Below, piece after piece: positions 22,518-64,000 of a stretch of DNA of 64,000 nucleotides. The DNA is from an uncultured Verrucomicrobiota bacterium (GTDB taxonomy: Bacteria > Verrucomicrobiota > Verrucomicrobiia > Limisphaerales > UBA9464), in the NCBI GenBank assembly GCA_964525755.1, contig CAZGIK010000021.1, positions 10,088 to 74,087 on the forward strand, in the 5' to 3' direction. A program made the translations under genes and the position numbers. Within the stretch, counting starts at the first letter, position 1. Every line of letters starts with the position of its first letter. The notes beneath the pieces are model-generated. The model was given only the letters and a program-made list of their open reading frames with translations, ran no database searches and was not told where the DNA came from.

Positions 22518-22706
22518 GGTCGTGGGCGGGGCCTCCGCGGGTCCGTCGGCCGGAGGCGACGGGATGCCCCCCGAAGCCGGAAACGCGGGCGACGCTAGCC
22601 CGGTTCCCCGGGGAGTCAAACGGGCGCGGCCCGTGGGCGGCCGCCGCGGTGTTCCGACGGGAAAACCCTTCCCAAGCGGGGGCCGATCGGCACACTCCGG
22701 GGCCTT

Positions 22707-23597
22707 GTGAATCCCACGTTCACGGGCACCCATACGGCCATTGTCACCCCGTTCGACGACGCCGGCGCGATCGACGAGACGGCGCTCGGCCGGCTGATCC
22801 GACTCCAGGTCCGGGGCGGCGTCGACGGCATCGTGCCGGTCGGCACCACCGGTGAATCCCCGACCCTCGACTACGACGAGCACATCCGGGTGGTGGAACT
22901 GGCGGTGAAGTTTGCGGCGGGCCGGGTGCCGGTCCTGGCCGGGACCGGCGGCAATTCGACCGCCGAGGCCATCGAGCTGACCCGACGGGCCGAGAAGGCG
23001 GGGGCGGACGGCTCGCTCCAGGTGGCCCCGTACTACAACAAGCCGTCGGCGGAGGGGTTGTACCAGCACTTCGCGGCCGTCGCCCGGTCGACCCGCCTGC
23101 CGCTCGTCCTGTACAGCATCCCCGGCCGGTGCGGCATCGAGATCCCGGTCGACGTCGTCCGCCGCCTTGCGGCGGAGCATCGGACGGTGGTGGGGATCAA
23201 GGAGGCGGGGGGCAATCCGGACCGGGTGAGCCAGCTGCGGGCCGCCTGCGGGCCGCGGTTCACGATCCTCAGCGGGGACGACGCCCTCACCCTGCCGTTC
23301 ATGTCGGTGGGCGCCCACGGGGTGGTGAGCGTGGCGTCGAACGTGGATCCGAAGCGGGTCGCGGCCATGGTGCGCGCCTACGCCGCCGGCGACGTCCGCC
23401 GGGCGCTCCGGCTCCACGACCGGCTCCACCCGCTGTTCAAGGACCTCTTCGTCGAGACCAACCCCGTTCCGGTGAAGGCGGCCCTGGCGATGATGGGCCT
23501 GATGGGCGAGTCGGTCCGCCTGCCGCTCGCCCCGCTCCAGCCGTCGAGCCGCGAACGCCTGGAGGCGACGCTCCGGGCGCTGGGCTACCTGGGCTGA
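22707..23597 (+). CDS. dapA: 4-hydroxy-tetrahydrodipicolinate synthase
   Basis: GTG start. GTHTAIVTPFDDAGAIDETALGRLIRLQVRGGVDGIVPVGTTGESPTL...QVAPYYNKPS...GIKEA is the canonical DapA pattern, including the Schiff-base Lys context. Confidence 0.93.
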   Translation: MNPTFTGTHTAIVTPFDDAGAIDETALGRLIRLQVRGGVDGIVPVGTTGESPTLDYDEHIRVVELAVKFAAGRVPVLAGTGGNSTAEAIELTRRAEKAGADGSLQVAPYYNKPSAEGLYQHFAAVARSTRLPLVLYSIPGRCGIEIPVDVVRRLAAEHRTVVGIKEAGGNPDRVSQLRAACGPRFTILSGDDALTLPFMSVGAHGVVSVASNVDPKRVAAMVRAYAAGDVRRALRLHDRLHPLFKDLFVETNPVPVKAALAMMGLMGESVRLPLAPLQPSSRERLEATLRALGYLG

Positions 23598-27485: not shown

Positions 27486-27521
27486 CCTCCCGACCGTCTT
27501 GTTCCGACCGAGTTTCCCTCC

Positions 27522-28940
27522 ATGCGTTTCCCCCTCGCCCTGACCGTCAAGATCGCCCGGCACATCACGGCCCACCGGATGCGACGGAGTCCGAAGTTCG
27601 CCATGGTGCTGCAGCTGGAGCCGCTGCACACCTGCAACCTCACCTGCACCGGGTGCGGCCGGATCCGCGAGTACTCCACCAGCCTCAAGGACATGGTGCC
27701 GCTGGAGAACTGCCTGGCGGCGGCGGCCGAGTGCGATGCGCCGATGGTGTCCATCTGCGGTGGCGAACCGCTGATCTATCCCCACATCGAGCAGCTCGTC
27801 ACCGGGCTGCGCGCGCAGGGTCGGATCATCTACATCTGCACCAACGGGGTGTTCATGCGGAAGAAGATGCGGGAGTACCTCGCCGCCCATCCCGGGCCCC
27901 GTCGCGAGCCGATGCTCCGGCAGTTGCTGGACGAGGAGCTGATCACCGAGAAGGAGGCCGAGGCGATCCGATCGGCCGACGAGACCGCACGCGCCCGGGT
28001 GACCATCGCCCCGAGCAAGTGGATGTACTGGAACGTCCACGTGGACGGGCTCGAGTACACCCATGACCTCATCGTCGAGCGCGAGGGTGTGTTCAAGGAG
28101 TGCGTGGCCGCCATCCGGATGGCGAAGATCCTGGGCTACCAGGTCGCCACCAACACCACGGTGTACAAGGAGACCGACGTCGCCGAGATCGAGGAGATGT
28201 TCAAGTACCTCAGCTCGCTGGGGGTGGACGGGCACACGATCTCGCCCGGCTACGACTACGACGCCGCCAAGAAGGACATGGTGAAGCGGCTCGGGCGGGA
28301 TCCGAAGGAATTCTTCCTCACGCGCGATTTGACCCGGCAGAAGTTCCGCGACATCGAGCGCTGGGGCCGGCTGTTCACGATCTTCGGCACGCCGGTCTAC
28401 CAGGAGTTCCTGGCCGGCAAGCGTGAGCTCACCTGCACGGCGTGGGCGATTCCGACGTTCAACGTGCGGGGCTGGAAGGCGCCGTGCTACCTGATGACCG
28501 ACGGGCACTATCCGACGTATCAGGGGATGCTCTCCCAGGTGGAGTGGGACCGCTACGGGGTGGTGGACGGGGTGGCGCGGGATGCACGGTGTGAGAACTG
28601 CATGGTGCACTGCGGGTACGACCCGAGCGGGGCCCTGAGCACCAAGCCGCGGGACACGTGGATCAACCTCAAGTTCAACTTCAGCGCTCGCCCGGCCCGC
28701 TGGCCGTCGAGCCCGGAACTGGAGAAGGGGGCCTTCAACGGTTTCAGCATCGGCAAGGGCCACCTGGCCGAGGCCAAGGCGGCGGTGCAGCGGGAGATGT
28801 CGGGCGCCCGGTCGGTGTTCCAGCGGAACGGCGACCACGACCATGCGGCACCGCCGGCCGGCGGGTCGTCGGCACAGCGGGACGAGCTCCTGGCCCGCAT
28901 CCGGCCCGCCACGGCGCCGGCGCCGGAGCGTCCGGAATGA
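27522..28940 (+). CDS. hpnH: Adenosyl-hopene transferase-like radical SAM protein (HpnH family, DUF3463 C-domain)
   Basis: LQLEPLHTCNLTCTGCGRI (CxxxCxxC), SICGGEPL, GVDGHTISPGYDYD, VRGWKAPCYLM and CENCMVHCGYDPS are collinear with the proteobacterial HpnH I recall. It contains an extra ~42-aa segment after ICTN (see findings). Confidence 0.85.
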   Translation: MRFPLALTVKIARHITAHRMRRSPKFAMVLQLEPLHTCNLTCTGCGRIREYSTSLKDMVPLENCLAAAAECDAPMVSICGGEPLIYPHIEQLVTGLRAQGRIIYICTNGVFMRKKMREYLAAHPGPRREPMLRQLLDEELITEKEAEAIRSADETARARVTIAPSKWMYWNVHVDGLEYTHDLIVEREGVFKECVAAIRMAKILGYQVATNTTVYKETDVAEIEEMFKYLSSLGVDGHTISPGYDYDAAKKDMVKRLGRDPKEFFLTRDLTRQKFRDIERWGRLFTIFGTPVYQEFLAGKRELTCTAWAIPTFNVRGWKAPCYLMTDGHYPTYQGMLSQVEWDRYGVVDGVARDARCENCMVHCGYDPSGALSTKPRDTWINLKFNFSARPARWPSSPELEKGAFNGFSIGKGHLAEAKAAVQREMSGARSVFQRNGDHDHAAPPAGGSSAQRDELLARIRPATAPAPERPE

Positions 28941-28965
28941 CCGCGGGGCCCGCAGTCGCCCGGGG

Positions 28966-30393
28966 ATGAGCGCGCTGTTCCTCTCGCCGCCGAGCTTCGA
29001 CGGATTCGACGGCGGCGCCGGGTCGCGCTACCAGGCGCGTCGGGAGGTCACCAGCTTCTGGTATCCGACCTGGCTCGCCCAGCCGGCCGCCCTGGTGCCC
29101 GGGTCCCGCCTGCTGGACTGTCCGCCGCACGGGATCGGCCTCGGGGAGTGCCTGCGGCTCGCCGAGGGGCACGAGCACATCATCCTCCACACCTCCACCC
29201 CCACCCTGCGCAACGACTGCCGGGTGGCCGAGGCGATCAAGGAGCGGAACCCCTCCGCCCGCATCGGCTTCGTGGGCGCCCACCCGGCGGTGCTCCCCAC
29301 CGAGACCCTCCGGTCCTCGCCCGCCATCGACTGGGTGGGCCGCCGCGAGTTCGACTTCACCTGCCGCGAGGTGTGCGAGGGACGTCCCATGGAACAGATC
29401 GCCGGGCTCAGCTTCCGCAAGGACGGCCGGGTGATCCACAACCCGGAGCGCGAGCTGATCCACGACATGGATGCGCTGCCGTGGGTGGCCGACGTCTACC
29501 GGCGCGACCTCGACATCAGCCGCTACTTCATCGGCTACCTCCTGCATCCGTACATCAGCCTGTACACCGGCCGGGGATGTCCGGCCCAGTGCACGTTCTG
29601 CCTGTGGCCGCAGACGATCGGCGGGCATCGGTACCGGGTGCGTTCCGCCGGGAACGTGGCGGCGGAGATGGCCTACCTGAAGGCGGCGTTCCCGCAGGTG
29701 AAGGAGTTCTTCTTCGACGACGACACGTTCACCGCCAACCTGCCGCGGGCCCGGGAGATCGCGCGGCGGATCGCGCCGCTCGGGCTCACCTGGTCCTGCA
29801 ACAGCCGGGCGAACCTCGAGGAGGACACCATCCGCGAGCTGCGCGACGCCGGGTTGCGACTCTTCCTGGTGGGGTACGAGACCGGGAACGAGGACATCCT
29901 GCGCCGGATCAAGAAGGGGGTGACCCTGGACGAGATGCGCCGCTTCACCCGGGCCTGCCACCGCGCGGGGGTGGTGATCCACGGGACGTTCATCCTCGGC
30001 CTGCCGGTGGAGACGCCGGAGACGATCGAGAACACCATCCGCTTCGCCCAGGAACTGGATGTGTTCAGCATCCAGGTCTCGCTCGCGGCGCCGTATCCGG
30101 GGACCGAGCTGTACGAGATGGCCCGCCAGAACGGCTGGCTGGTGCGGCGGGACAAGTCCGACATCCTCCAGCAGCACGGCTTCCAGCACAGCGCCCTGGA
30201 GTACCCGGGCCTGTCGGCCGCCGAGATCTACGAGGGGGTCGAGCGGTTCTACCACCGGTACTTCCTCCGGCCCGGCCCGATCCTGCGCATCCTCCGGACC
30301 ATGCTGGAGGACAAGCAGGTGTTCGTCCGCCGCTGCCGCGAGGGCTTCGAGTTCTTCCGCAGCATGTCCCAGCGCCGCGACGGCCGGTCGTAG
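28966..30393 (+). CDS. hpnJ: Hopanoid biosynthesis-associated B12-binding radical SAM protein
   Basis: In-frame tail of track ORF 28843..30393(+), from MSALFLSPPSFDGFDGGAGSRYQARREVTSFWYPTWLAQPAAL. It also has YTGRGCPAQCTFCLWPQT and QVKEFFFDDDTFT. It is near-identical in pattern to the HpnJ I recall. Confidence 0.88.
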   Translation: MSALFLSPPSFDGFDGGAGSRYQARREVTSFWYPTWLAQPAALVPGSRLLDCPPHGIGLGECLRLAEGHEHIILHTSTPTLRNDCRVAEAIKERNPSARIGFVGAHPAVLPTETLRSSPAIDWVGRREFDFTCREVCEGRPMEQIAGLSFRKDGRVIHNPERELIHDMDALPWVADVYRRDLDISRYFIGYLLHPYISLYTGRGCPAQCTFCLWPQTIGGHRYRVRSAGNVAAEMAYLKAAFPQVKEFFFDDDTFTANLPRAREIARRIAPLGLTWSCNSRANLEEDTIRELRDAGLRLFLVGYETGNEDILRRIKKGVTLDEMRRFTRACHRAGVVIHGTFILGLPVETPETIENTIRFAQELDVFSIQVSLAAPYPGTELYEMARQNGWLVRRDKSDILQQHGFQHSALEYPGLSAAEIYEGVERFYHRYFLRPGPILRILRTMLEDKQVFVRRCREGFEFFRSMSQRRDGRS

Positions 30394-30523
30394 CGCGGGA
30401 GGCGCCGGGGGCTGGAGGGGCGGGATTCCGAAGTCGGGAGATTTCCAGTTGACCCCCGACGGGCGGTTTGGAGACAAAATCGTCCACTCGTTACCTGAGT
30501 CACCCTGTTCCGAAGATTTGCCC

Positions 30524-33500
30524 ATGCCCCGAGGTACACGCCGTCGAGCGATCACACCGCCGCGTCCGGTCAACACGACCAAGTACGACGCCCATCATCG
30601 CGTCCTCACCAGCACCTACGGGTCGTTCGCCGACCTGCGGCGCGAGCTGGCCGACTCCAAGGAGAAGGTGGCCGAGCGGGAGAAGGTGCTGGGGCAGCTG
30701 AGCGAGACCGTCGATCCGCAGCGGGCCTACCTGCTGTTCGACGACTACCTGGAGAAGCTGTCGCTGCGACGATCGGATTTCGGCCAGCACGACTGGTGGT
30801 CGCGGATCCAGGATGCCGCCGGGAACCGGCGGCTGGAGGAGGTGGCGATGCTGTTCCTGCGGTCGAACCGGTCGCTGCCCACCGAGCTGGTGCCGCATGC
30901 GAACTTCGAGCGGTTCGCCGAGGTGGAGCAGTCGGAGAAGGAATCGGGGTTTGTCGCGGCGCTGGAGAGCTGGCTGTTTCCGCCGAACCATTCCCATCTC
31001 GACTCCCCCCGGGCGGCCCTGCGGGTGGTGTGCGAGCCGCAGGCGTTGGCGCCCGACGTCAACCAGTGGCGGCTCGGGATCCGGTTCCTCCTGTTCCGGA
31101 GCCGGTCGGGCGAGAAGGAACGGTTCATCCCCGACCTGTGCGAGCTGCGCACGCGGGCGGCCCATGAGGCCGAGCTGTTCCCGGCCGAGGACTGGAGGGT
31201 GATCGACTGGCTCCATGCCAACTGGCCGACCCGGGTCGCGGCCGGGGAACGGCTGGTCATCGACGGCACCGACCTGCTGGTGTGGCTGGCGCAGTTCGGA
31301 CACGGCCAGCGGCTCGAGTGCCCGGGAATGTCCGACGGACTGTCCTTCCTCGGACGGATCGCCGAGCTGAAGCCGCGGCTGGACACGGTCGACGGCGAGC
31401 TGAGCTTCACCCACGTGCTGCACCTGCCCGACGGCCGGCAGGAGGCGCTGCCCGGGTGCCGGTTCATGTCGGGCGAGCCGCCGCTGGTGCTGGTGGGGAA
31501 CGAGTTCTTCCTCCTCCGCAACGCGCCCCCCCCCTCGCTCCTCGGCCCCTGGGCACAGCGGCCCATCGTTCCCGTCCGACGCCTCTCGCAGCGGCTCCTG
31601 ACCGAGCTGCGCCGGACGCAGTCGGTCGGCGACGGCGCCGCGGCCTGGGACCAGCTGTGCGAGACCCACACGGCCCGTCCGCAGTTCGTGTTCGAGCTGG
31701 CCGACGAGGTCGTGCGCCTGCGCCTCCTGGCCACCAGCGATGTGGACGGGTCGGAATGGCAGTGGAACGGGCACGAGTGGCAGCGGGTGGTGGCCCGGCG
31801 GAAGGACGGCGACGGCCGGCCGGAGCTGCTTGACGATCCCCGGCTGGCCCCGGCGGTGGAGTGGCTGCAGCGGCTCGACTGGTTCACGCCCGATCCGGGG
31901 CTGTGGGTGGGCGACGCCAACGAGAACTTCCTCTCCGCCCTGGCGTTCGCCTGGGCCGACCGCCCGGAGGAGGCCGACTTCCTCGGCAACCCGCCCTTCC
32001 AGCGCCTCTTCCTCAACCGCCGCGTGGTCAAGCCCAAGCTGGTCCTGCGCGGGTCGGGGATCGACTGGCTGTCGGTCTCGGCCGAGTGGGAGGCCGAGGG
32101 GATGCGGCTGTCGCCGGCCGATGTGCGTCGGCTGGCCCAGGCGACGACCCGTTTCGTGAAGCTGCCCGACGGGGGCTGGGTGGAGATCGACGTGGAGGCC
32201 AACCGCAAGGCCCATGAGACGGCGGCGACGCTGGGCCTGGAGGGGCTGAGCGACGAGTCGCAGAAGGCCTCGCTGCTGCATGCCACGCAGCTGGACGAGG
32301 CGACGCTGGACGAGATGGGCACCCGCAAGGTGGTGGCGGCGCTGCGGGAGAAGCTGGCGAACTTCCGCGGGGTGCCCGACACCCCGCTGCCGGACAACAT
32401 CCACGCGGAGCTCCGTCCGTACCAGAAGGAGGGCTTCGACTTCCTGTGCAACCTCTCGCGGCTCCGGCTGGGCGGGATCCTGGCCGACGACATGGGCCTC
32501 GGGAAGACGCTCCAGACGCTGACGTGGCTGACCTGGCTCCACGCCAATGCGCCGAAGAAGGACCGCAAGCCCTCGCTGGTCATCTGCCCGGCCTCGGTGC
32601 TGCACAACTGGCGGCGTGAGGCGGAGAAGTTCGTGCCGCACCTCAAGGTGCTCGTCCTCCAGTCCGGCCAGGCCCGCCACAACCTGCGTCGCCAGATCCC
32701 CGAACACGACATCGTGGTCACCAACTACGCCATCCTCCGGCGCGACCTGGAGGAGCTGGGCAAGTTCCCGTTCCGGGCGCTGATCCTCGACGAGGCGCAG
32801 TTCATCAAGAACCCGAACGCCCAGGTCACCCTGGCGGTGAAGGAGATCGAGGCCGACCAGCGGCTGGCCCTGACCGGCACGCCCCTGGAGAACCGGATGC
32901 TCGACCTGTGGTCGATCGTCGACTTCATCCAGCCCGGCTACCTGGGCAACCAGACCAGCTTCCAGGAGACCTACGAGCCCAAGGGTGAGGGGGCGGATTG
33001 GGAGCAGGCGACCGCCCGGCGCCGGCTCAGCGCGCGGCTGCGGCCGCTGATGCTGCGCCGCCTCAAGCGGCAGGTGGCGAAGGATCTGCCCGACCGGATC
33101 GAGGAGCGGCGGGACTGCGAGCTCGACGACGAGCAGCGCAAGCTCTACCTGGCCGAGCTGCGGCGGAGCCGTGAGCAGGTCATGAAGACCCTGCAGGAGA
33201 AGGGCGTGGCGAAGTCCAAGATGCACGTCCTCGCGGCCCTCACCCGCCTGCGGCAGATCTGCTGCCATCCGCGCCTGGTCGGCAACAGCACCCCCTCGGG
33301 CAAGACCGACACCCTGTTCGAGCTGCTCGAGCCGATCCTCGCCTCCGGCAACAAGGTCCTGCTGTTCTCCCAGTTCGTGGAGATGCTCAAGCTGCTCGAG
33401 GCGGCCTGCAAGGAGCGGGGGATCCCCACCCACATCCTCACCGGCGAGACCAAGGGCCGGCAGGAGGTGGTGAACGCGTTCCAGGCGGACCCGAATCCCG

Positions 33501-33805
33501 GCGTGTTCCTCCTCTCGCTGCGCGCCGCCGGAACCGGACTCAACCTCACCACCGCCAGCTATGTCGTCCTGTACGACCCGTGGTGGAACCCCGCGGTCGA
33601 GGCCCAGGCGATCGACCGCTCGCATCGCATCGGCCAGACCCGCACGGTGAACGCCTACCGGCTCATCACTCCGGGCACGGTCGAGGAGAAGATCTGGGAG
33701 CTCCAGCAGCGCAAGGCCCAGACGATCCAGGACGTGCTGGGCGAGGAGGGCTTCGCCACCAACCTCAGCCGCGACGACCTGGAGTACCTCTTCAGCGAGG
33801 ATTGA
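30524..33805 (+). CDS. SNF2-family ATP-dependent helicase with a ~620-aa N-terminal region (YwqA/SNF2-associated type)
   Basis: In-frame tail of track ORF 30059..33805(+), from MPRGTRRRAITPP. Helicase motifs are LADDMGLGKT (I), LILDEAQFIKN (II), LTGTPLEN (III) and QAIDRSHRIGQ (VI). The segment GIDWLSVSAEWEAEGMRLSPADVRRL...VKLPDGGWVEID resembles the bacterial SNF2-associated domain. Confidence 0.9.
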   Translation: MPRGTRRRAITPPRPVNTTKYDAHHRVLTSTYGSFADLRRELADSKEKVAEREKVLGQLSETVDPQRAYLLFDDYLEKLSLRRSDFGQHDWWSRIQDAAGNRRLEEVAMLFLRSNRSLPTELVPHANFERFAEVEQSEKESGFVAALESWLFPPNHSHLDSPRAALRVVCEPQALAPDVNQWRLGIRFLLFRSRSGEKERFIPDLCELRTRAAHEAELFPAEDWRVIDWLHANWPTRVAAGERLVIDGTDLLVWLAQFGHGQRLECPGMSDGLSFLGRIAELKPRLDTVDGELSFTHVLHLPDGRQEALPGCRFMSGEPPLVLVGNEFFLLRNAPPPSLLGPWAQRPIVPVRRLSQRLLTELRRTQSVGDGAAAWDQLCETHTARPQFVFELADEVVRLRLLATSDVDGSEWQWNGHEWQRVVARRKDGDGRPELLDDPRLAPAVEWLQRLDWFTPDPGLWVGDANENFLSALAFAWADRPEEADFLGNPPFQRLFLNRRVVKPKLVLRGSGIDWLSVSAEWEAEGMRLSPADVRRLAQATTRFVKLPDGGWVEIDVEANRKAHETAATLGLEGLSDESQKASLLHATQLDEATLDEMGTRKVVAALREKLANFRGVPDTPLPDNIHAELRPYQKEGFDFLCNLSRLRLGGILADDMGLGKTLQTLTWLTWLHANAPKKDRKPSLVICPASVLHNWRREAEKFVPHLKVLVLQSGQARHNLRRQIPEHDIVVTNYAILRRDLEELGKFPFRALILDEAQFIKNPNAQVTLAVKEIEADQRLALTGTPLENRMLDLWSIVDFIQPGYLGNQTSFQETYEPKGEGADWEQATARRRLSARLRPLMLRRLKRQVAKDLPDRIEERRDCELDDEQRKLYLAELRRSREQVMKTLQEKGVAKSKMHVLAALTRLRQICCHPRLVGNSTPSGKTDTLFELLEPILASGNKVLLFSQFVEMLKLLEAACKERGIPTHILTGETKGRQEVVNAFQADPNPGVFLLSLRAAGTGLNLTTASYVVLYDPWWNPAVEAQAIDRSHRIGQTRTVNAYRLITPGTVEEKIWELQQRKAQTIQDVLGEEGFATNLSRDDLEYLFSED

Positions 33806-56702: not shown

Positions 56703-57233
56703 ATGACCTCCGCCCCCCTTCCTGAAGCCGCGATGGCGCCGGATTCCCCCGGCGGTGCGGCGCGTGGGGGTGGGGTGGCGAGGCCGTTGTTCACCTACCG
56801 GTACAAGCACGGGGTGGACACCCAGGGGCGGATCCAGTTTCCGAGCCGATGGAAGCTCCGTGCGACCGACACCGAGCTGGTGGCGGTGCTGGTGCATCAT
56901 CGACTGCTGAAGCAGGACTACGTGCTGGTGCTGCCCTACGACCTTTTTGATGTGTTCACCGGGCCGCTGCGGTCCGGTGGGTTCACCGACACCACTGCCC
57001 AGGCGTTCCGGCACGAGTACGCGGAGCGGATGATGACCATCGACCTCGACGGTTCGGGACGGTTCAGCCTGCCGTCCGAGCTGCGGGGGCCCGCGGGGCT
57101 GGAGAAGGAGGCCCTGCTGGTGGGGTGTGTAGACCGGTTTGAGATCTGGAATCCGGCCGCCTACGAGGCGGCGAGGGAGCGGGAGCGGGGCTTCATCGAC
57201 GGCATCAAGGCGACCGACCGCATCGAGCTATGA
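56703..57233 (+). CDS. mraZ: Transcriptional regulator MraZ
   Basis: YKHGVDTQGRIQFPSRWK and DLDGSGRFSLPSELR are the two SpoVT/AbrB-like MraZ repeats (DxxGR-hydrophobic-x-hydrophobic-P). It is the first gene of the dcw cluster. The N-terminal ~25 aa are an extension, and the true start may be internal. Confidence 0.88.
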   Translation: MTSAPLPEAAMAPDSPGGAARGGGVARPLFTYRYKHGVDTQGRIQFPSRWKLRATDTELVAVLVHHRLLKQDYVLVLPYDLFDVFTGPLRSGGFTDTTAQAFRHEYAERMMTIDLDGSGRFSLPSELRGPAGLEKEALLVGCVDRFEIWNPAAYEAARERERGFIDGIKATDRIEL

Positions 57234-57583
57234 ACTGGTTCAAACGACTTTTTCGCCGGAAGACCTCCCGGCAGGCGACGACCCCTGCGGCTTCCCCGAT
57301 GCCTGCGGGGCGGCGGGGGTGGTGGGCGCGGTGGCGTCGTCGGGGCGAGGTCCCGGTGCGGAACCCACGGCAGCTGGAGATGCTGCTCAGTGGGGTACGG
57401 CCGGTGCGCAATTCTCTTCTGGATGACGATGTCGAGGTCGTGAAGCGGCCCCGGTCCCGTCTGATCTATGAGACCAAGCCGGCCTCCGGCGCCCAGCGTG
57501 CGCACCTGGAGGAGGAATCCAACCGCGCGTGGGAGCGTCTGCGGGGCCGGCAACTGGATCGGTTGAAGGTTTCGGCCGACTGA
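57230..57583 (+). CDS. Hypothetical Arg-rich 117-aa protein inserted between mraZ and rsmH
   Basis: The ATG overlaps the mraZ stop (ATGA) and the ORF ends 13 nt before the rsmH GTG. Codons mostly end in G/C, as in neighbouring genes. I recognise no motif. Confidence 0.45.
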   Translation: MNWFKRLFRRKTSRQATTPAASPMPAGRRGWWARWRRRGEVPVRNPRQLEMLLSGVRPVRNSLLDDDVEVVKRPRSRLIYETKPASGAQRAHLEEESNRAWERLRGRQLDRLKVSAD

Positions 57584-57596
57584 ACCCCGGGCATGC

Positions 57597-58526
57597 GTGC
57601 AGCCTTCGTTCGACCACATCCCGGTGATGCTGCCGGAGGCGCTGGCGGCGCTGGGAGTGCGCCCGGGCGGCCGCTGGCTGGACGGTACGGCGGGTGGCGG
57701 CGGGCATTCCGAGGCCATCTTGGCGGCGACGTCGCCGACGGGCTTCCTGTGGGCGTGCGACCAAGATGGCGACGCGCTTGAGGCGACGGCCCGGCGCCTG
57801 GCCGGGTACGCGGGCCGGTTCGAGCTGCGTCGGATGAATTTCGCCGAGATCGGCACCTGGGTGCCGGCGGGCTCGTGCGACGGCGTCCTGCTGGATCTCG
57901 GCGTCAGTTCGCATCAGCTCGATACCGGCGACCGCGGGTTCAGTTTCCAGCAGGACGGGCCGCTGGACATGAGGATGGACCGTCGGTCGGGGCTGACGGC
58001 GGCGGATGTGGTGAATGACTGGCCGGAGGCCGACCTGGTGGCGGTGCTCCGGGAACTGGGAGAGGAACCGGCGGCCCGGCGGATCGCCCGGGCCGTGGTG
58101 GATGATCGGCAGGTGAGACGGATGACGACAACGGGGCAACTGGCGGCGTGTGTGGCCCGGGTGATCCCCCGGCGGGGCCGCACCCACCCGGCCACGCGGA
58201 CCTTCCAGGCCATCCGGCTGGCGGTGAACCGGGAGCTCGACGTCCTGCCCCTCGGCCTCGAGGCGGGGTTCGGGGCGCTCGCGCCCGGCGGGCGGCTGGT
58301 CGTCATCACTTTCCACTCCCTCGAAGACCGGATCGTCAAGCGGACGTTCCGTGATCTCTGCCGGGACTACGATTTTCCGGGCGCGGTGGACGTGCCTGAG
58401 CTCCGGGTGCCGCGGGTTCCCCGGGCGCGGGCGGTGACCCGCAGCGCGCTGGCACCGGGCGACGCGGAGCTGGCGGTCAATCCCCGCGCGCGGAGCGCCC
58501 GGCTCCGGGCGATCGAGAAACTCTGA
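57597..58526 (+). CDS. rsmH: 16S rRNA (cytosine1402-N4)-methyltransferase
   Basis: FDHIPVMLPEALAAL...WLDGTAGGGGHSEAIL...LLDLGVSSHQLD...FHSLEDRIVK are canonical RsmH motifs. GTG start. Confidence 0.93.
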   Translation: MQPSFDHIPVMLPEALAALGVRPGGRWLDGTAGGGGHSEAILAATSPTGFLWACDQDGDALEATARRLAGYAGRFELRRMNFAEIGTWVPAGSCDGVLLDLGVSSHQLDTGDRGFSFQQDGPLDMRMDRRSGLTAADVVNDWPEADLVAVLRELGEEPAARRIARAVVDDRQVRRMTTTGQLAACVARVIPRRGRTHPATRTFQAIRLAVNRELDVLPLGLEAGFGALAPGGRLVVITFHSLEDRIVKRTFRDLCRDYDFPGAVDVPELRVPRVPRARAVTRSALAPGDAELAVNPRARSARLRAIEKL

Positions 58527-58533
58527 GACGACG

Positions 58534-58968
58534 ATGGCAAGGAATCGAAAACGGGAGGATGTCGCCCTGCGGTGGGGCACGTTGGTGCGGTCGTTGCTGG
58601 CCTCGCTGGCGATCGCCGGACTCGGCGTCGGCTACGTCCGGCAATCCATCGTTCAGGATCGCCTGGGCAGGGAATGGAACAAGCTGGAGCAGCAGAACGA
58701 GGAGCTGACCCGGGCCATCTCCGCCCAGCGGCACCAGCTCAGCCAGCTCAAGTCGGGCGAGGGCCTGAGGGTCCTCATGGCCCGGCACGGGATCTCCCTG
58801 ACGAATCCGTCGCCCGCCCGCCGGATCTACCTGGAACTGCCCGTCCGTCCGGTGGAGGGCATGTCCGCCCCGGCGATGGCCCGCGGCCGGTCGATCACCC
58901 CGGCTCGCGTCCTCCCGGCACGCACCACCTCCGCCCTCGCCACGCTCAACACGCCCACCCCTCCCTGA
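58534..58968 (+). CDS. ftsL: FtsL-like cell division protein (single TM + coiled coil)
   Basis: Its position between rsmH and ftsI fits ftsL. It has a TM helix LVRSLLASLAIAGLGVGYV followed by the coiled-coil-like LGREWNKLEQQNEELTRAISAQRHQLSQL. The call rests on position and architecture only. Confidence 0.6.
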   Translation: MARNRKREDVALRWGTLVRSLLASLAIAGLGVGYVRQSIVQDRLGREWNKLEQQNEELTRAISAQRHQLSQLKSGEGLRVLMARHGISLTNPSPARRIYLELPVRPVEGMSAPAMARGRSITPARVLPARTTSALATLNTPTPP

Positions 58969-58970
58969 CC

Positions 58971-61082
58971 GTGCCCGACGCGCCGTCCACCCACCGACGC
59001 CTGCACTTCATCACCGCGCTGTTCGTGGTGGTGCTGTGCGGCCTCGCGGTGCGGCTGGTCCATGTCCAGGGGATCGCCCCGATGCACGCCGGGCCGGCGG
59101 AGGACGCCCTCCAGAAGATCCCGCTGCCGGCGCGGCGCGGTGCGGTCCACGACGTCCATGGAACCCTCCTGGCCCATTCGCGCTTCGTCTACGACCTGAA
59201 GGTGGATCCGGTCCTGCTCGGCCCTCACGCCGCCGAGTTCGCCCGCTTCACCGCACCGTTGCTCGGGATCCCCGAGGAGCAGCTCGTGCCGCTGTTCACG
59301 CCCCGCGGGGAACGTCGGACCCGGAAGGAAGTGGAACGGGATCCGGGCGGGCGCTGGCGGACCAACGAGGTCGCCTTCCTGTTCACCAACCGGGCGGTTG
59401 CGGTGCGTTCCCAGGTGGAACCCCGGGAGTGGGCGTCGATCCGGAGCCAGATCCGCACCAACTTCCAGCTGGCGGCCCGGGCCGAGGCGGCCCGCGACCT
59501 GGCCGCGGTGGCCGCCGTGTCGCCCAACCTCGCCGGCAAGCTGCGGCTCGTCGCCTCGGGTGACCTCGCCTCGCTGAACCGGTTCAAGTCCACGCTCAAG
59601 GAGGCCCGGCGCCGACGGGACGCCCTCCGCCTGCAGGAGCTCGAGATGCGGGTCAACGGACTCACGGCCCATGAGGTCGAGATGCGGGCCTATCCGCTCG
59701 GCGGCCTGGCGGCCCACGTCCTCGGCCACACCGACGAAAGCGACACGGCCGCGGCACCGGGCCTTCCCCCGCGACTGAAGGGGATGATGGGCATCGAGTG
59801 GCGCTTCGACCCCGAACTCCAGGGGGTTCCCGGCCAGCGGGTGATCCATACCGCCCGGGGACGGGAACTCGCCTTCCTGCGCGAGCGGGACATCCCGGCG
59901 CGGAACGGTCTTGACGTCCACCTTACCCTCGATGCCCGCGTCCAGATGGCGGTCGAGCGCGCCCTGGACGCCGGGGTCGAGCGGCTCTCGCCCCAGGGGA
60001 TCTCCTGCGTCGTGATGCGTCCCCAGTCCGGTGAGATCCTCGCCATGGGAAGCCGTCCGACCTTCGACCCCAACCGCTTCCGCAAGTACCCGGTCGACTG
60101 GCGCCGGAACCGGGCGCTGGTGGACCCGGTTGAGCCGGGGTCGACGTTCAAGATGGTCACCTATGCCGCGGCCTTTGACCTCGGTCTGGCGACCCCGGAC
60201 TCCCTGGTGGACTGCGAGCACGGGCTGTGGAGTCCCCCCAGCGGGCGGGCGGTCCGGGATGTCGAGGGACACGGGCTCGGGGTGGTCACGGTCGAGGAGG
60301 CGTTCGCCAAGTCCTCCAACGTGGCCGCAGCCAAGTACGGCCTCCAGATCCCCATCCCGGTGTTCCGCGAGTACGCCGGTCGGATGGGCTTTTTCCAGCG
60401 CACCGGAGTCTTTTTCCGCCAGCAGGTCGACACCAACGGCATGCCCTTCGCCAGCTTCGGGGCGGAGGATCCGGGTTCGTTCCCGCCGGTCCGCCGGATC
60501 AACACCGAGCTCCACGGACGGCTCAGCTACGGCTACGGCCTGAAGGCCACCCCGCTGCAGATCGCCGCGGCCATGTCGACCATCGCGAACGGTGGACGGT
60601 ACATGCGGCCGCACCTGGTGCGGCGGCTGACGGCACCGGACGGAACGGTGGTCCGTGAGTTTTCCCCGGAGATGGTGGGCCAGGCGATGCGTCCGGAGAC
60701 GGCGGAGCGGATGCGTCGGATGCTCCGGCGGGTGGTCTCGGATGGCACGGCGCGGCGGGCGGCGCTGGAGGATTACGCCGTGGCCGGAAAGACGGGCACG
60801 GCCCACAAGTTCGTCAACGGCCGCCAGAGCAACGAACACTACACCTCCACCTTCGTCGGCTACCTGCCCGCGGGGAAGCCGGAGCTGTGCATCGTGGTGG
60901 TGGTGGACGAGCCCCGCAAGCGGGGTGCGGGCAGCCACTACGGCGGAACGGCCTGCGGGCCGATCTTCCAGCAGGTCGCCCGGGAGGCCGCAGGCTACCT
61001 GGCCCTGCCGCCCGACATCGAGGAACTGCCCGAGGACCTCACCGTGGTGCGCACGGTGGCCGGACGGGGGAGGGGGGGATGA
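58971..61082 (+). CDS. ftsI: Peptidoglycan D,D-transpeptidase FtsI (class B PBP)
   Basis: In-frame tail of track ORF 58572..61082(+), from GTG 58971 (VPDAPSTHRRLHFITALFVVVLCGLAV, TM anchor). It has an intact SxxK (GSTFKM), SxN (KSSNV) and KTG (GKTGTA). Confidence 0.9.
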   Translation: MPDAPSTHRRLHFITALFVVVLCGLAVRLVHVQGIAPMHAGPAEDALQKIPLPARRGAVHDVHGTLLAHSRFVYDLKVDPVLLGPHAAEFARFTAPLLGIPEEQLVPLFTPRGERRTRKEVERDPGGRWRTNEVAFLFTNRAVAVRSQVEPREWASIRSQIRTNFQLAARAEAARDLAAVAAVSPNLAGKLRLVASGDLASLNRFKSTLKEARRRRDALRLQELEMRVNGLTAHEVEMRAYPLGGLAAHVLGHTDESDTAAAPGLPPRLKGMMGIEWRFDPELQGVPGQRVIHTARGRELAFLRERDIPARNGLDVHLTLDARVQMAVERALDAGVERLSPQGISCVVMRPQSGEILAMGSRPTFDPNRFRKYPVDWRRNRALVDPVEPGSTFKMVTYAAAFDLGLATPDSLVDCEHGLWSPPSGRAVRDVEGHGLGVVTVEEAFAKSSNVAAAKYGLQIPIPVFREYAGRMGFFQRTGVFFRQQVDTNGMPFASFGAEDPGSFPPVRRINTELHGRLSYGYGLKATPLQIAAAMSTIANGGRYMRPHLVRRLTAPDGTVVREFSPEMVGQAMRPETAERMRRMLRRVVSDGTARRAALEDYAVAGKTGTAHKFVNGRQSNEHYTSTFVGYLPAGKPELCIVVVVDEPRKRGAGSHYGGTACGPIFQQVAREAAGYLALPPDIEELPEDLTVVRTVAGRGRGG

Positions 61083-61083
61083 G

Positions 61084-62388
61084 ATGATCCTGGACCAGCT
61101 CATCCGCAGCCTGCCCGAGGTGGAATCGACCGGTCCGGCGTGGCGCGGTGCGGGTCGACGGGAGGTGACCGGGGTCACGTCGGACGGCCATCGGGCCGGG
61201 CCGGGGGTGGTGTTCGTGGCCCTGCCGGAGCAGCTCCGCGCCGATCCGCACCTGGTGGAGGCGGCCGTGGCGCGCCGGCCCGCGGCGGTGATCGCCCCGG
61301 TGGGGGTTCCGGTGCCGTCCCGGGCCGCGTCGGTGGCGGTGCGCGATTCCGCGCGGGCCCTGGCGGTCGCCGCGGCGACGCTCCACGGCTATCCCGGACG
61401 CGATCTCCGCGTGATCGAGGTGGACGGTGCCTCCCGGGGGCGCGGGGCGGCGGCCGACTACCTCTTCCAGTTCCTCGGCCACCTCATGCCGCCGGCGGGC
61501 CTGCTGGCCGCCGACCGTTGCCTGCTGGCCGGCAGGGTCCTTGCCCAGCCGGCGGCCGGGCTGGACCCCTTCGAACTCCAGCGCTCCCTCGCCGCCCACC
61601 GCGGTGCGGGAGGAACCCATGTGGTCCTCGAGAGCCCGGGCGCCGCCGTCCCGTCCCTCGGGATCGAGGTGCTCCCGCGGGGCCTGCGGGTGGATGCCGA
61701 TGCCGACGCAATGCCGCATCGGGTTGTCCAGTCGACCCGTCGCGGAACCGTGCTGGCGCTGGCCGGGGCGTCGGGCGAGGTCCGGGTGGCGGCCCCGGTG
61801 GTGGGCCGACGCCAGGTGGAGGCGCTCCTCGCCGCCTTGGCGGCGGGATGCCGGCTGGGCATTCCGCCCGAACGGCTCCGGGCCCTCATCCCCCGGCTCC
61901 AATCGCCGCCGGGTTGCCTGGAACCCGTTGCGGCCGGACAACCCTTCGAGGTGCGGGTCGACGCCACGCCGGATCCGGAGGCCCTCGCCGAGGTGCTTGC
62001 GGAATTGCGTCCGCTCACGCCCGGCCGACGGATCCTCGTCCTCGGGGCGCGGGCCGACTGGTCCGGGGAGGTCTGGGCGGCCTGGGCCGGGGCCGCCCGG
62101 GGCGCCGACCTGCTGGTGGCCACGGTGGACGATCCCGGGCATGCCGACGCCCCCGACCTCGCCGCGCGCCTCGCCGGGGGACATCCGACGGCCCGTCCGG
62201 AGGCCGACCGCGGGGCGGCGATCCGTCGGGCGGTGGGCCTGGCGCGTCCCGGCGACATCGTGCTGGTGGCCGGCAAGGGGCGGGCGTCCCGATTGGACCT
62301 GGGACACATCGTGCTGCCCTGGGACGACCGCCGGGCCGTCCGCCATGCCCTGGCCGGGGCCGGGTATCCCGGGGAGGATTGGACCTGA
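61084..62388 (+). CDS. MurE-position Mur-ligase-like protein lacking the ATP-binding P-loop (possibly non-catalytic)
   Basis: In-frame tail of track ORF 60655..62388(+), from ATG 61084 (MILDQLIRSLPE). It is collinear with MurE at both ends (GVVFVAL...; DIVLVAGKGRASRLDLGHIVLPWDDRRAV). It reads VIEVDGASRGRGAAADY where GxxGKT is expected. The confidence value refers to it being a real CDS. Confidence 0.8.
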   Translation: MILDQLIRSLPEVESTGPAWRGAGRREVTGVTSDGHRAGPGVVFVALPEQLRADPHLVEAAVARRPAAVIAPVGVPVPSRAASVAVRDSARALAVAAATLHGYPGRDLRVIEVDGASRGRGAAADYLFQFLGHLMPPAGLLAADRCLLAGRVLAQPAAGLDPFELQRSLAAHRGAGGTHVVLESPGAAVPSLGIEVLPRGLRVDADADAMPHRVVQSTRRGTVLALAGASGEVRVAAPVVGRRQVEALLAALAAGCRLGIPPERLRALIPRLQSPPGCLEPVAAGQPFEVRVDATPDPEALAEVLAELRPLTPGRRILVLGARADWSGEVWAAWAGAARGADLLVATVDDPGHADAPDLAARLAGGHPTARPEADRGAAIRRAVGLARPGDIVLVAGKGRASRLDLGHIVLPWDDRRAVRHALAGAGYPGEDWT

Positions 62389-63787: not shown

Positions 63788-64000
63788 ATGCTGTACCATC
63801 TGTCCGAACGCTTTCCGTTCCCCCCGTGGTCGCTCTTCCAGTACACGACCTTCCGGAGCGCCGGGGCCCTGGTGACCGCCCTCCTGCTTTCGTGGTGGCT
63901 GGGCCCCCGGGTGATCCGCTGGCTCCGCGAGCTGCGGTACCGTCAGGAGTACACCCCGAAGGATGCCGCGGCCGGGGTGCCCGACGTGGCGTCGGACCTG
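63788..64000 (+). CDS. mraY: Phospho-N-acetylmuramoyl-pentapeptide transferase (N-terminal 71 codons; continues beyond the window)
   Basis: My own translation: MLYHLSERFPFPPWSLFQYTTFRSAGALVTALLLSWWLGPRVIRWLRELRYRQ. This is the typical MraY N-terminus and the expected position after murF. Confidence 0.88.
   Translation, partial: MLYHLSERFPFPPWSLFQYTTFRSAGALVTALLLSWWLGPRVIRWLRELRYRQEYTPKDAAAGVPDVASDL

What the first reader, a model, noticed from the sequence alone, without database searches (positions are those of the whole stretch)
61084..62388. The murE slot of the dcw cluster holds a Mur-ligase-like gene with no P-loop and eroded catalytic motifs
A 434-aa ORF lies between ftsI (stop 61082) and murF (ATG 62388, TGATG overlap). 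It follows MurE order at both ends: ...VTGVTSDGHRAGPGVVFVAL... at the N-terminus and ...GDIVLVAGKGRASRLDLGHIVLPWDDRRAV... at the C-terminus.

Where all Mur ligases carry the ATP-binding GxxGK(T/S) loop, it reads LRVIEVDGASRGRGAAADYLF. No GKT or GKS occurs anywhere in the protein.

Other positions differ from E. coli MurE as I recall it:
- DYAHTPDAL reads VDATPDPEAL.
- GCGGDRDKGKR reads GARADWSGEVW.
- DNPR reads VDDPG.
- GKGHE reads GKGRAS.

The neighbours are intact. murF has GGSNGKTTSK, ftsI has STFK/SSN/KTG, and mraY follows. So this is not general decay of the peptidoglycan pathway.

The other two forward frames across this interval (track ORFs 61140.. and 61427..) show no hidden P-loop, so a simple frameshift artefact is unlikely. 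The ORF is translationally coupled on both sides, which suggests it is expressed.

Possibilities are a MurE-derived non-catalytic scaffold or regulator of the divisome/Mur complex with the real murE elsewhere, or a very divergent ligase chemistry.
Basis: partly seen in the sequence, partly recalled or inferred. Interest (0 to 1): 0.75.

Follow-up and report, generated by a model that had tools for sequence, protein, structure and literature searches.

The report
Conserved catalytically dead MurE in dcw operon
The gene sitting where the cell-wall enzyme MurE should be encodes a MurE-shaped protein that has lost its ATP-using active site. Natural selection still preserves it in a large group of Verrucomicrobiota, so it probably has a non-enzymatic job and the real MurE activity must come from elsewhere.

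Summary
ORF 61084-62388 (434 aa) lies between ftsI and murF. It has the MurE fold (AF2 pLDDT 88; TM 0.79 to MurE) but no P-loop, and only one Lys in the whole protein. About 60-65 residues are missing, including the DHLDYH and carbamyl-lysine segment, and the C-terminal motifs are eroded.

It is not a pseudogene or an artefact. A second strain shows 33 synonymous against 5 non-synonymous changes (dN/dS 0.05). Ten other species pairs give 0.08-0.25, similar to murF.

It belongs to a large, apparently undescribed family. At least 45 clusters (50% identity) of degenerate MurE were found, both short and full-length. They occur in at least 28 GTDB Verrucomicrobiota species (Limisphaerales/Pedosphaera-like), and the gene lies between ftsI and murF in every locus whose flanks were held. 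Degeneration seems to have happened repeatedly.

The absence of murD and murC from the cluster is a trait of the clade: a relative with a canonical MurE lacks them too. One relative pairs a dead MurE with an intact murD, which implies MurE activity is encoded elsewhere.

The most likely role is a non-catalytic MurE derivative that acts as a scaffold or precursor-binding partner of MurF. I could not test whether a second murE or mpl exists in these genomes.

The parts
61084..62388 (+). Gene for a 434-aa catalytically dead MurE homologue (pseudo-MurE) in the murE slot.
   Evidence: ORF and translation. Family scores: Pfam finds Mur_ligase_C only, and TIGR01085 gives 130 bits, below its 257 cut-off. 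Fold: AF2 pLDDT 88.3, and Foldseek TMq 0.79 to MurE 4c12 and to PAP11 8r6s_Q. Selection: dN/dS 0.053 against strain L001.
61084..61383 (+). N-terminal domain (aa 1-100), equivalent to the UDP-binding domain of MurE. It is well conserved.
   Evidence: It aligns to MurE domain 1. It is 82% identical to P0002, against 47% for the central part. Mean column identity in the short family is 0.38.
61420..61455 (+). Remnant of the P-loop (aa 113-124, VDGASRGRGAAA). It replaces GVTGTNGKTT.
   Evidence: Alignments to MurE. This segment varies in both sequence and length across the family. No GK[ST] occurs in any frame.
61384..61908 (+). Reduced central domain (aa 101-275), the former ATPase domain. About 60-65 residues are deleted near aa 186-205. 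EVSSH, DHLDYH and the carbamyl-Lys are lost.
   Evidence: Alignments. It is the least conserved part of the protein: column identity is 0.27 overall and 0.23 in its second half.
61909..62328 (+). C-terminal domain (aa 276-415). Its motifs are eroded: DATPDP for DYAHTP, RADWS for GGDRD, DDPG for DNPR, GKGRA for GKGHE. The fold is conserved and K398 is the protein's only Lys.
   Evidence: Pfam Mur_ligase_C over aa 281-399. Motif table. It is the most conserved domain, 0.41. The family-invariant residues are G277, G314, G321, T347, R376, D391, G397 and P412.
62329..62385 (+). C-terminal tail (aa 416-434, ...ALAGAGYPGEDWT). Its last codons contain the murF Shine-Dalgarno sequence GGGGAGGA (62371-62378).
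   Evidence: Sequence. The tail motif LAxRG[YFHW]xGxE is conserved in the family, and canonical verrucomicrobial MurE has a similar tail.
61066..61078 (+). Purine-rich Shine-Dalgarno-like run (GGGGGAGGGGGGG) inside the end of ftsI. It lies 5-17 nt upstream of the pseudo-MurE ATG.
   Evidence: Sequence.
58971..61082 (+). ftsI (class B PBP, 703 aa by the gene call on the identical contig L169).
62388..63785 (+). murF, intact. It has the P-loop GGSNGKTTSK and scores 371 bits on TIGR01143.
   Evidence: dN/dS is 0.20.
63788..64000 (+). Start of mraY, which runs off the window. On the identical contig L169 the cluster continues with a LysM protein, ftsW, murG, murB, ddl, ftsQ, ftsA and ftsZ. There is no murD and no murC.
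56703..58968 (+). Start of the dcw cluster: mraZ (56703-57233), a 117-aa ORF with no family hit (57230-57583), mraW (57627-58526) and an ftsL-like ORF (58534-58968).

Best explanation
**What it is.** The ORF encodes a MurE orthologue that has become a pseudoenzyme.
- It keeps the three-domain MurE architecture, and its N- and C-terminal domains are conserved.
- Its ATP/Mg site is destroyed: the P-loop, the EVSSH Glu/His region, DHLDYH and the carbamylated Lys are gone, and about 60-65 residues are deleted.
- In this particular lineage the DAP pocket motifs (DNPR, and the Arg of GGDRDxxKR) are eroded as well.
- It is co-translated with ftsI and murF and is held by purifying selection as strong as that on murF.

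**How it most likely works (inferred).** It acts without catalysis, as a structural partner. The likeliest form is that it docks on MurF and the Mur/divisome assembly through its C-terminal domain. It may also still bind a UDP-MurNAc-peptide. The DAP-adding reaction would then be carried out by another enzyme encoded outside the dcw cluster.

**Shown versus inferred.**
- Shown: MurE ancestry and fold, loss of the catalytic apparatus, selective constraint, family-wide conservation and the fixed gene position.
- Inferred: the scaffold or binding role, and the existence of a second MurE activity.
For: **Fold and ancestry.**

**Loss of the catalytic apparatus.**

**Selection.**
- Against strain L001 there are 33 synonymous and 5 non-synonymous differences. 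NG86 omega is 0.053, with binomial p = 3e-13.
- In 10 further species pairs omega is 0.08-0.25, against 0.12-0.24 for murF.

**Size and spread of the family.**
- 45 of 141 single-length representatives are degenerate.
- 28 GTDB Verrucomicrobiota species carry one pseudo-specific motif. The gene lies between ftsI and murF in every locus whose flanks were held.
- The same operon layout is seen in four sublineages.

**Pattern of constraint.** The N and C domains are conserved and the central domain is relaxed. This fits a binding or docking role.

**Published support for a docking role.** In the Bordetella MurE-MurF chimera, the MurE C-terminus covers a hydrophobic patch of MurF. The MurE C-domain and the first two MurF domains bind MurC and MurD (PMC10214165).

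**Evidence that MurE activity exists elsewhere.**
- L133 pairs a dead full-length MurE (GTRGRTT, no DH, no KCX) with an intact murD.
- Several degenerate forms are closer to canonical MurE than to each other. For example, P0024 is 68% identical to canonical P0217 but 54% to its nearest degenerate relative. This implies repeated loss, and therefore a redundancy that was already present.
Against: - No second murE was seen. There is none in the 64-kb window, in about 8 kb downstream, or in the flanks of any related locus.
- No whole genome of the clade could be searched.
- No interaction with MurF was tested.
- At long range the protein is the fastest-evolving member of the cluster: 34% identity between the window and L007, against 47-69% for its neighbours. 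A tightly co-evolving scaffold might be expected to change more slowly.
- The C-terminal tail is shared with canonical verrucomicrobial MurE, and it partly encodes the murF ribosome-binding site, so its conservation is ambiguous.
Confidence: 0.6

Rival explanations
1. **Pathway rewiring.** The clade has no canonical MurE activity at all. UDP-MurNAc-tripeptide would be made by another route, either Mpl-type ligation of a scavenged or recycled tripeptide or an unknown ligase. The pseudo-MurE would survive as an adaptor or substrate-presenting subunit for that route or for MurF.
For: - murD and murC are absent from the dcw cluster in all short-form lineages.
- L035 carries a murD with substitutions at catalytic positions: E157D, K198I, D317N and T321M in E. 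coli numbering.
- No other Mur ligase was seen in any DNA that I held.
- The DNPR motif and nearby residues persist in many family members.
Against: - L105 has a fully canonical MurE and also lacks murD and murC in its cluster, so their absence is a clade trait and not a loss.
- L133 keeps an intact murD beside a dead murE. Its product is useful only to a MurE activity.
- Intact murF and ddl imply a normal tripeptide substrate.
- De novo synthesis of the free tripeptide is not known (established knowledge).
Confidence: 0.12
2. **Still an enzyme.** The protein would be a highly divergent ligase or transferase that uses a relocated or different nucleotide site, or that borrows catalytic residues from a partner.
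For: - Strong purifying selection.
- The P0018-type short forms keep GxHGKTT.
- Family-invariant R151, E183, D293, T347, R376, D391 and K398 could form a site.
Against: - The P-loop segment is hypervariable in sequence and length across the family.
- The segment with the Mg-binding His and the carbamyl-Lys is physically deleted, including in the forms that keep GKT.
- The former ATPase domain is the least constrained part of the protein.
Confidence: 0.07
3. **Pseudogene or spacer.** The ORF would be a decaying remnant, an assembly or frameshift artefact, or kept open only to preserve translational coupling and the murF ribosome-binding site.
For: - Long spurious ORFs are common at 71% GC.
- The murF Shine-Dalgarno sequence lies inside the last codons of the ORF.
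- The catalytic motifs are gone.
Against: - dN/dS is 0.05-0.25 over the whole gene, in 11 comparisons.
- GC3 is 0.88, as in the neighbouring genes.
- The length and reading frame are preserved across lineages that share only 30-60% identity.
- The structure model is confident.
- The same sequence is found in independent assemblies.
Confidence: 0.03

Closest known systems
[quoted passage not shown] E. coli 1E8C, S. aureus 4C12, M. tuberculosis 2WTZ)
   Same: - It has the three-domain Mur-ligase fold (Foldseek TMq 0.74-0.79).
- Its best sequence matches are MurE.
- It occupies the same operon position between ftsI and murF.
- It keeps remnants of the TxDxR, PGxxE, DRxxAI and AGKG motifs.
   Different: - It lacks the P-loop, EVSSH, DHLDYH, the carbamyl-Lys, DYAH and GGDRD, and DNPR has become DDPG.
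- About 60-65 residues of the central domain are deleted.
- It scores below the family cut-offs.
Plant MurE-like protein PAP11, a structural subunit of the plastid-encoded RNA polymerase (PDB 8R6S chain Q, 8XZV, 8W9Z)
   Same: - Both are MurE-fold proteins kept for a role other than peptidoglycan ligation.
- PAP11 is the top structural match (TMq 0.79) and the second-best sequence match.
- Angiosperm MurE acts in plastid gene expression (PMC9434261).
   Different: - PAP11 is eukaryotic and carries long extensions.
- It still shows a GTNGKT-type loop in the alignment.
- It works in a transcription complex, whereas the window's gene stays inside a working bacterial dcw operon.
MurE-MurF chimera of Bordetella pertussis (PDB 8F5D)
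   Same: - It is the best PDB sequence hit.
- MurE and MurF are tightly coupled, with the MurE C-terminus docking on MurF (PMC10214165). In the window the two genes overlap and are translationally coupled.
   Different: In the chimera both halves are active enzymes and they are covalently fused. In the window the MurE half is dead and is a separate polypeptide.
Stand-alone MurE-like genes of Planctomycetota (Pirellulales, Thermoguttaceae, Planctomycetaceae), seen here
   Same: Both share the altered GQPFGVFVDAAR(T/S)P motif in place of VDYAHTP, and both have eroded GGDRD and GKGHE motifs.
   Different: - The planctomycete proteins keep the P-loop GKT, are about 490-546 aa long, and are more similar to E. 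coli MurE (100-245 bits).
- They mostly lie outside any dcw context.
- Whether they are related by descent to the verrucomicrobial family was not tested.

Membership tests
MurE ligase (TIGR01085 / EC 6.3.2.13) | Three-domain Mur-ligase fold | tested here: met
   AF2 pLDDT 88.3 and pTM 0.85. Foldseek E 2e-27 and TMq 0.79 to 4c12.
MurE ligase (TIGR01085 / EC 6.3.2.13) | Gene position between ftsI and murF in the dcw cluster | tested here: met
MurE ligase (TIGR01085 / EC 6.3.2.13) | ATP-binding P-loop GxxGK(T/S) | tested here: not met
   The aligned segment reads GASRGRG. No GK[ST] occurs in any frame, and the protein has a single Lys.
MurE ligase (TIGR01085 / EC 6.3.2.13) | Mg2+/catalytic residues of the central domain (EVSSH, the His of DHLDYH, the carbamylated Lys) | tested here: not met
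   EVSSH reads ESPGA. The DHLDYH...AAK segment is deleted.
MurE ligase (TIGR01085 / EC 6.3.2.13) | C-domain substrate motifs DYAHTP, GGDRDxxKR, DNPR and GKGHE | tested here: not met
   They read DATPDP, RADWS/GEVWA, DDPG and GKGRA. DNPR survives in some other family members.
MurE ligase (TIGR01085 / EC 6.3.2.13) | Score above the curated family cut-off | tested here: not met
   TIGR01085 gives 130.5 bits against 257.3. The equivalog models give 154 against 476. There is no Pfam Mur_ligase_M hit.
MurE ligase (TIGR01085 / EC 6.3.2.13) | DAP-adding activity | not testable with these tools
   This needs an enzyme assay or complementation.
Pseudogene | Disrupted frame or neutral evolution (dN/dS close to 1) | tested here: not met
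   The 434-aa frame is intact in three assemblies. Omega is 0.053, and 0.08-0.25 in ten other pairs.
Pseudoenzyme (a conserved homologue of an enzyme that lacks catalytic residues) | Homology and fold of an enzyme family, loss of its catalytic residues, and conservation under selection | tested here: met
   Lack of activity itself was not measured.
Mpl (UDP-MurNAc:tripeptide ligase, TIGR01081) | MurC-like sequence with a P-loop | tested here: not met
   NCBIfam gives no mpl hit for the ORF. The best hits are all MurE models.

The most novel reading that the evidence does not exclude
An abundant environmental clade of Verrucomicrobiota may build its peptidoglycan stem peptide without any canonical MurE. 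The third residue would be added by an unrecognised enzyme or by a salvage (Mpl-like) route. The conserved dead MurE would be an obligatory non-catalytic subunit that presents the UDP-MurNAc precursor to that enzyme or to MurF. In the weaker form of this reading, a true murE exists elsewhere. The family would then be the first bacterial case showing that a Mur ligase has an essential structural role separable from catalysis, which would be direct evidence for the long-postulated cytoplasmic Mur complex.
Probability: 0.12. Interest if true: 0.9.

Novelty: new variant of a known kind. Interest (0 to 1): 0.62.

Why it matters
**Why it is unusual.** Mur ligases are textbook essential enzymes and antibiotic targets. 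Here the enzyme in the murE slot is dead, yet selection preserves it as strongly as it preserves murF, and this holds across dozens of species and seems to have arisen repeatedly. That points to two things:
- MurE proteins have a function that can be separated from catalysis, such as assembling the Mur/divisome complex or handling the precursor.
- These bacteria obtain MurE activity from an unidentified source.

**Practical consequences.**
- It offers a natural experiment for testing the Mur-complex hypothesis.
- It warns against automatic annotation, because JGI labels such proteins as MurE.
- It affects metabolic reconstructions of abundant soil and freshwater Verrucomicrobiota.

**Prior reports.** I found no paper describing this family in the library I searched.

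Tried and rejected
1. **Frameshift or hidden P-loop.** Rejected. No GK[ST] occurs in any of the six frames.
2. **Pseudogene.** Rejected on dN/dS.
3. **murC, murD and murE all lost together.** I first read the missing murD and murC as joint loss of the tripeptide branch. I rejected this after finding L105, which has a fully canonical MurE in the same cluster without murD or murC, and L133, which has an intact murD next to a dead murE.
4. **V. spinosum as a cultured example.** The RS36300/RS36305 locus tags suggested that it keeps a real murE/murD pair elsewhere plus a remnant in the cluster. Rejected: the older locus tags and the ordering in the supplement show a canonical cluster.
5. **Cultured Opitutaceae as carriers.** Rejected. 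O. terrae, Lacunisphaera and Coraliomargarita have normal MurE, MurD and MurC/B.
6. **Search for a second Mur ligase.** phmmer with MurC, MurD, MurE, MurF and Ddl against six-frame translations of the window and all related loci found only the pseudo-MurE and murF.
7. **Scans that led nowhere.**
   - The genome scan with the window protein found no family member.
   - The scan with a family alignment was swamped by canonical MurE of other phyla.
   - One alignment was too divergent for the tool to use.
   - The metagenome scan with the L133 MurD gave four loci, none of them informative about a second murE.
8. **Exact look-ups.** Look-ups of the window protein, P0002 and P0190 found nothing on record.
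9. **Rfam.** No RNA family was found in the window.
Full report
**1. The observation**

The ORF runs from ATG 61084 to TGA 62386-62388 and is 434 aa long. It starts one base after the ftsI stop (61080-61082), and its stop overlaps the murF ATG at 62388 (TGATG). No GK[ST] or Walker A motif occurs in any of the six frames of the interval. The protein contains a single lysine, K398.

Its neighbours are ordinary. murF scores 371 bits on TIGR01143 against a cut-off of 288.6. ftsI carries STFK, SSN and KTG. The ORF itself behaves differently:
- Pfam recognises only Mur_ligase_C (E 1e-15) and not Mur_ligase_M.
- The best NCBIfam models are all MurE, but they score far below their cut-offs. TIGR01085 gives 130 bits against 257.

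Alignments to solved MurE structures and to canonical verrucomicrobial MurE show the following:
- GTNGKT is replaced by GASRGR.
- EVSSH is replaced by ESPGA.
- About 60-65 residues are missing, including DHLDYH and the carbamylated lysine.
- DYAHTP reads DATPDP, GGDRD reads RADWS, DNPR reads DDPG, and GKGHE reads GKGRA.

Its motif positions agree with the PDB alignments.

**2. A real, folded, constrained protein**

An AlphaFold2 model built on an 18-sequence alignment is confident (pLDDT 88.3, pTM 0.85). Its best structural matches are the plant MurE-like protein PAP11 and bacterial MurE, with TMq 0.74-0.79. The three-domain MurE architecture is therefore kept.

Codon GC3 is 0.88, the same as in murF and ftsI.

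The sequence is reproducible:
- A Logan assembly of run SRR14492188 is identical to the window over 11.6 kb.
- A contig from ENA sample ERZ1283842 (L001) differs at 2.8% of positions and carries the same 434-aa ORF.

Between the window and L001 the gene shows 33 synonymous and 5 non-synonymous differences. NG86 dN/dS is 0.053, and the binomial p against neutrality is 3e-13. The same comparison gives 0.20 for murF and 0.30 for the ftsI segment. In ten further species pairs of the family, omega is 0.08-0.25, against 0.12-0.24 for the adjacent murF. This excludes a pseudogene, an artefact, or an ORF kept open only as an operon spacer.

**3. One member of a large family**

I ran a profile search of 1.84 billion representative proteins and then scored seven canonical motifs in each hit.
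- 45 of the 141 single-length sequences are degenerate (4 or fewer of the 7 motif checks), and 25 of those keep none.
- About 17 of these clusters are short (396-452 aa, with the central deletion).
- About 27 are full-length (481-536 aa).
- Nearly all lack the P-loop lysine.
- One short subgroup, the P0018 type, still has GxHGKTT. It carries the same deletion and has eroded C-terminal motifs.

I then searched one genome per GTDB species for a DNA pattern encoding GQxFGV[FL]xD[AG]A, which is specific to the degenerate forms. It matched 28 Verrucomicrobiota species. The gene lies between ftsI and murF in every locus whose flanks were held. The records include:
- a complete 7.9-Mb chromosome labelled Limisphaerales bacterium (OZ260084.1, L151),
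- "Pedosphaera sp." Baikal-deep-G220,
- UBA6176.

Other sources label these proteins UDP-N-acetylmuramyl tripeptide synthase, glutamate ligase domain-containing protein, or hypothetical. I found no paper describing them.

**4. Context**

The operon has the same layout in the window lineage (L001, L169), L007, the P0033 type and the P0018 type:

mraZ - (small ORF) - mraW - ftsL - ftsI - pseudo-murE - murF - mraY - LysM protein - ftsW - murG - murB - ddl - ftsQ - ftsA - ftsZ

There is no murD and no murC. Chthoniobacteraceae clusters, V. spinosum (by its locus tags) and cultured Opitutaceae have a normal murE and murD, with murC fused to or adjacent to murB.

I first read this as joint loss of the MurC-D-E branch. 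That reading is wrong. L105 lies on an 838-kb contig and has a fully canonical MurE (P0217), yet it shows the same cluster without murD or murC. Their absence is therefore a trait of the clade, and those genes must lie elsewhere.

Two intermediate cases are informative:
- L035 has a full-length dead MurE. Its murD carries substitutions at catalytic positions (E157D, K198I, D317N, T321M in E. coli numbering).
- L133 has a dead full-length MurE (GTRGRTT, no DH, no KCX, DGARTE) followed by murF, mraY and a fully intact murD.

An intact MurD is useful only if something adds the third residue. A MurE activity must therefore exist outside the cluster, at least in that lineage.

**5. Evolutionary pattern**

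In an NJ tree the short forms and the L035 MurE group apart from canonical verrucomicrobial MurE. Bootstrap support is only 56%, and long-branch attraction is likely.

Pairwise identities over the N and C domains give a different picture. Many full-length degenerate proteins are closer to canonical P0217-type MurE than to any other degenerate protein. P0024, for example, is 68% identical to P0217 but 54% to its nearest degenerate relative. A second subfamily, recognisable by an N-terminus beginning MIGYL, also contains both canonical and degenerate members.

Loss of the active site therefore seems to have happened repeatedly. That is expected if MurE catalysis is redundant in this clade while the protein itself is still needed.

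Within the short family the N and C domains are more conserved than the former ATPase domain. Mean column identity is 0.38 and 0.41 against 0.27. Over long distances the protein is the fastest-evolving member of the cluster.

**6. Mechanism**

Shown:
- The protein is a MurE-derived, folded and selectively maintained protein.
- It lacks every element needed for acyl-phosphate chemistry.
- It is encoded in an otherwise intact peptidoglycan and division operon.
- Its gene sits one base after the ftsI stop and overlaps the murF start, so it is probably translated together with them.

Inferred:
- It works without catalysis. The most likely role is as a docking or scaffolding partner of MurF and the Mur/divisome assembly.
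- It may still bind a UDP-MurNAc-peptide through its conserved N and C domains.
- The real DAP-adding enzyme is encoded elsewhere.

The Bordetella MurE-MurF chimera gives a structural precedent. There the MurE C-terminus caps a hydrophobic patch of MurF, and the MurE C-domain together with MurF binds MurC and MurD (PMC10214165). Angiosperm MurE/PAP11 shows that the MurE fold can be kept for a non-ligase structural role (PMC9434261).

One caveat concerns the conserved C-terminal tail. It also encodes the murF Shine-Dalgarno sequence (62371-62378), and canonical verrucomicrobial MurE has a similar tail. Its conservation is therefore not specific evidence for docking.

**7. Rival explanations**

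- Pathway rewiring (no MurE activity in the clade, with an Mpl-like or unknown route) cannot be excluded, because no whole genome could be searched. L105 and L133 argue against it.
- A divergent enzyme is unlikely. The former nucleotide site is hypervariable and partly deleted, and it is the least constrained region of the protein.
- A pseudogene, artefact or spacer is contradicted by the selection data.

**8. Limits**

- I could not determine whether a second murE, murC, murD or mpl exists in any genome that carries the pseudo-MurE.
- The dN/dS values use stop-to-stop ORFs and the NG86 method. dS is saturated in the more distant pairs.
- The count of independent degeneration events rests on identities and an NJ tree, not on a proper phylogeny.

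**9. Verdict**

- "Real murE elsewhere" is supported only indirectly, and the scaffold role is a hypothesis.
- This is a new, bacterial and apparently undescribed variant of a known kind: a pseudoenzyme derived from a Mur ligase.

Noticed in passing
L114, L119, L121, L125, L128, L132, L137, L138, L141, L154-L157, L161, L164 (Planctomycetota MAGs): Pirellulales, Thermoguttaceae and Planctomycetaceae carry MurE-like genes that mostly stand alone. They keep the P-loop GKT but read DAAR(T/S)P in place of DYAHTP, and their GGDRD and GKGHE motifs are eroded. These lineages are reported to have lost most other mur genes (PMC12283558). This may be a second repurposed MurE family.
   Followed up: partly
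L035:14031-15446: The murD of a Verrucomicrobiia MAG sits next to a dead full-length murE. It has substitutions at positions that are catalytic in E. coli MurD (E157D, K198I at the carbamyl-Lys, D317N, T321M). It could be a pseudo-MurD.
   Followed up: partly
L105, L001, L007, L098, L100, L169 (dcw clusters): In this verrucomicrobial clade the dcw cluster lacks murD and murC, even where MurE is canonical (L105). murB is not fused to murC, unlike in V. spinosum, Chthoniobacter and Opitutus. Where murC and murD lie in these genomes is unknown.
   Followed up: partly
window 57230-57583 (+): A 117-aa ORF with no Pfam hit lies between mraZ and mraW. An ORF of 106-219 aa occupies the same place in related clusters (L104, L105, the P0201 locus, L169). 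These two genes are usually adjacent.
   Followed up: no
L001:5022-5861, L169:12892-13734 (just downstream of the window): A LysM-domain protein is conserved between mraY and ftsW in all verrucomicrobial clusters I examined. In lineages that have murD it lies after murD.
   Followed up: no
window 62371-62378: The murF Shine-Dalgarno sequence GGGGAGGA is encoded within the conserved C-terminal PGEDW codons of the pseudo-MurE. Part of the tail's conservation may therefore reflect translation signals.
   Followed up: partly
L106, L129, L136, L139, L145 (record titles): Several MAGs that carry the family are labelled Akkermansia sp., Akkermansia muciniphila or Candidatus Kapaibacterium. They have 66-70% GC and a Limisphaerales-like dcw cluster, so they are probably mislabelled or mis-binned.
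   Followed up: no
window 27486-30390 (+) and 29978-33802 (+): Two radical-SAM genes (one with DUF3463, one with a B12-binding domain) are followed by a 1275-aa SNF2-family helicase. They are unrelated to the finding.
   Followed up: no
window 22599-23594 (+): A dihydrodipicolinate synthase (dapA) gene is present, so the DAP/lysine pathway exists in this genome.
   Followed up: no
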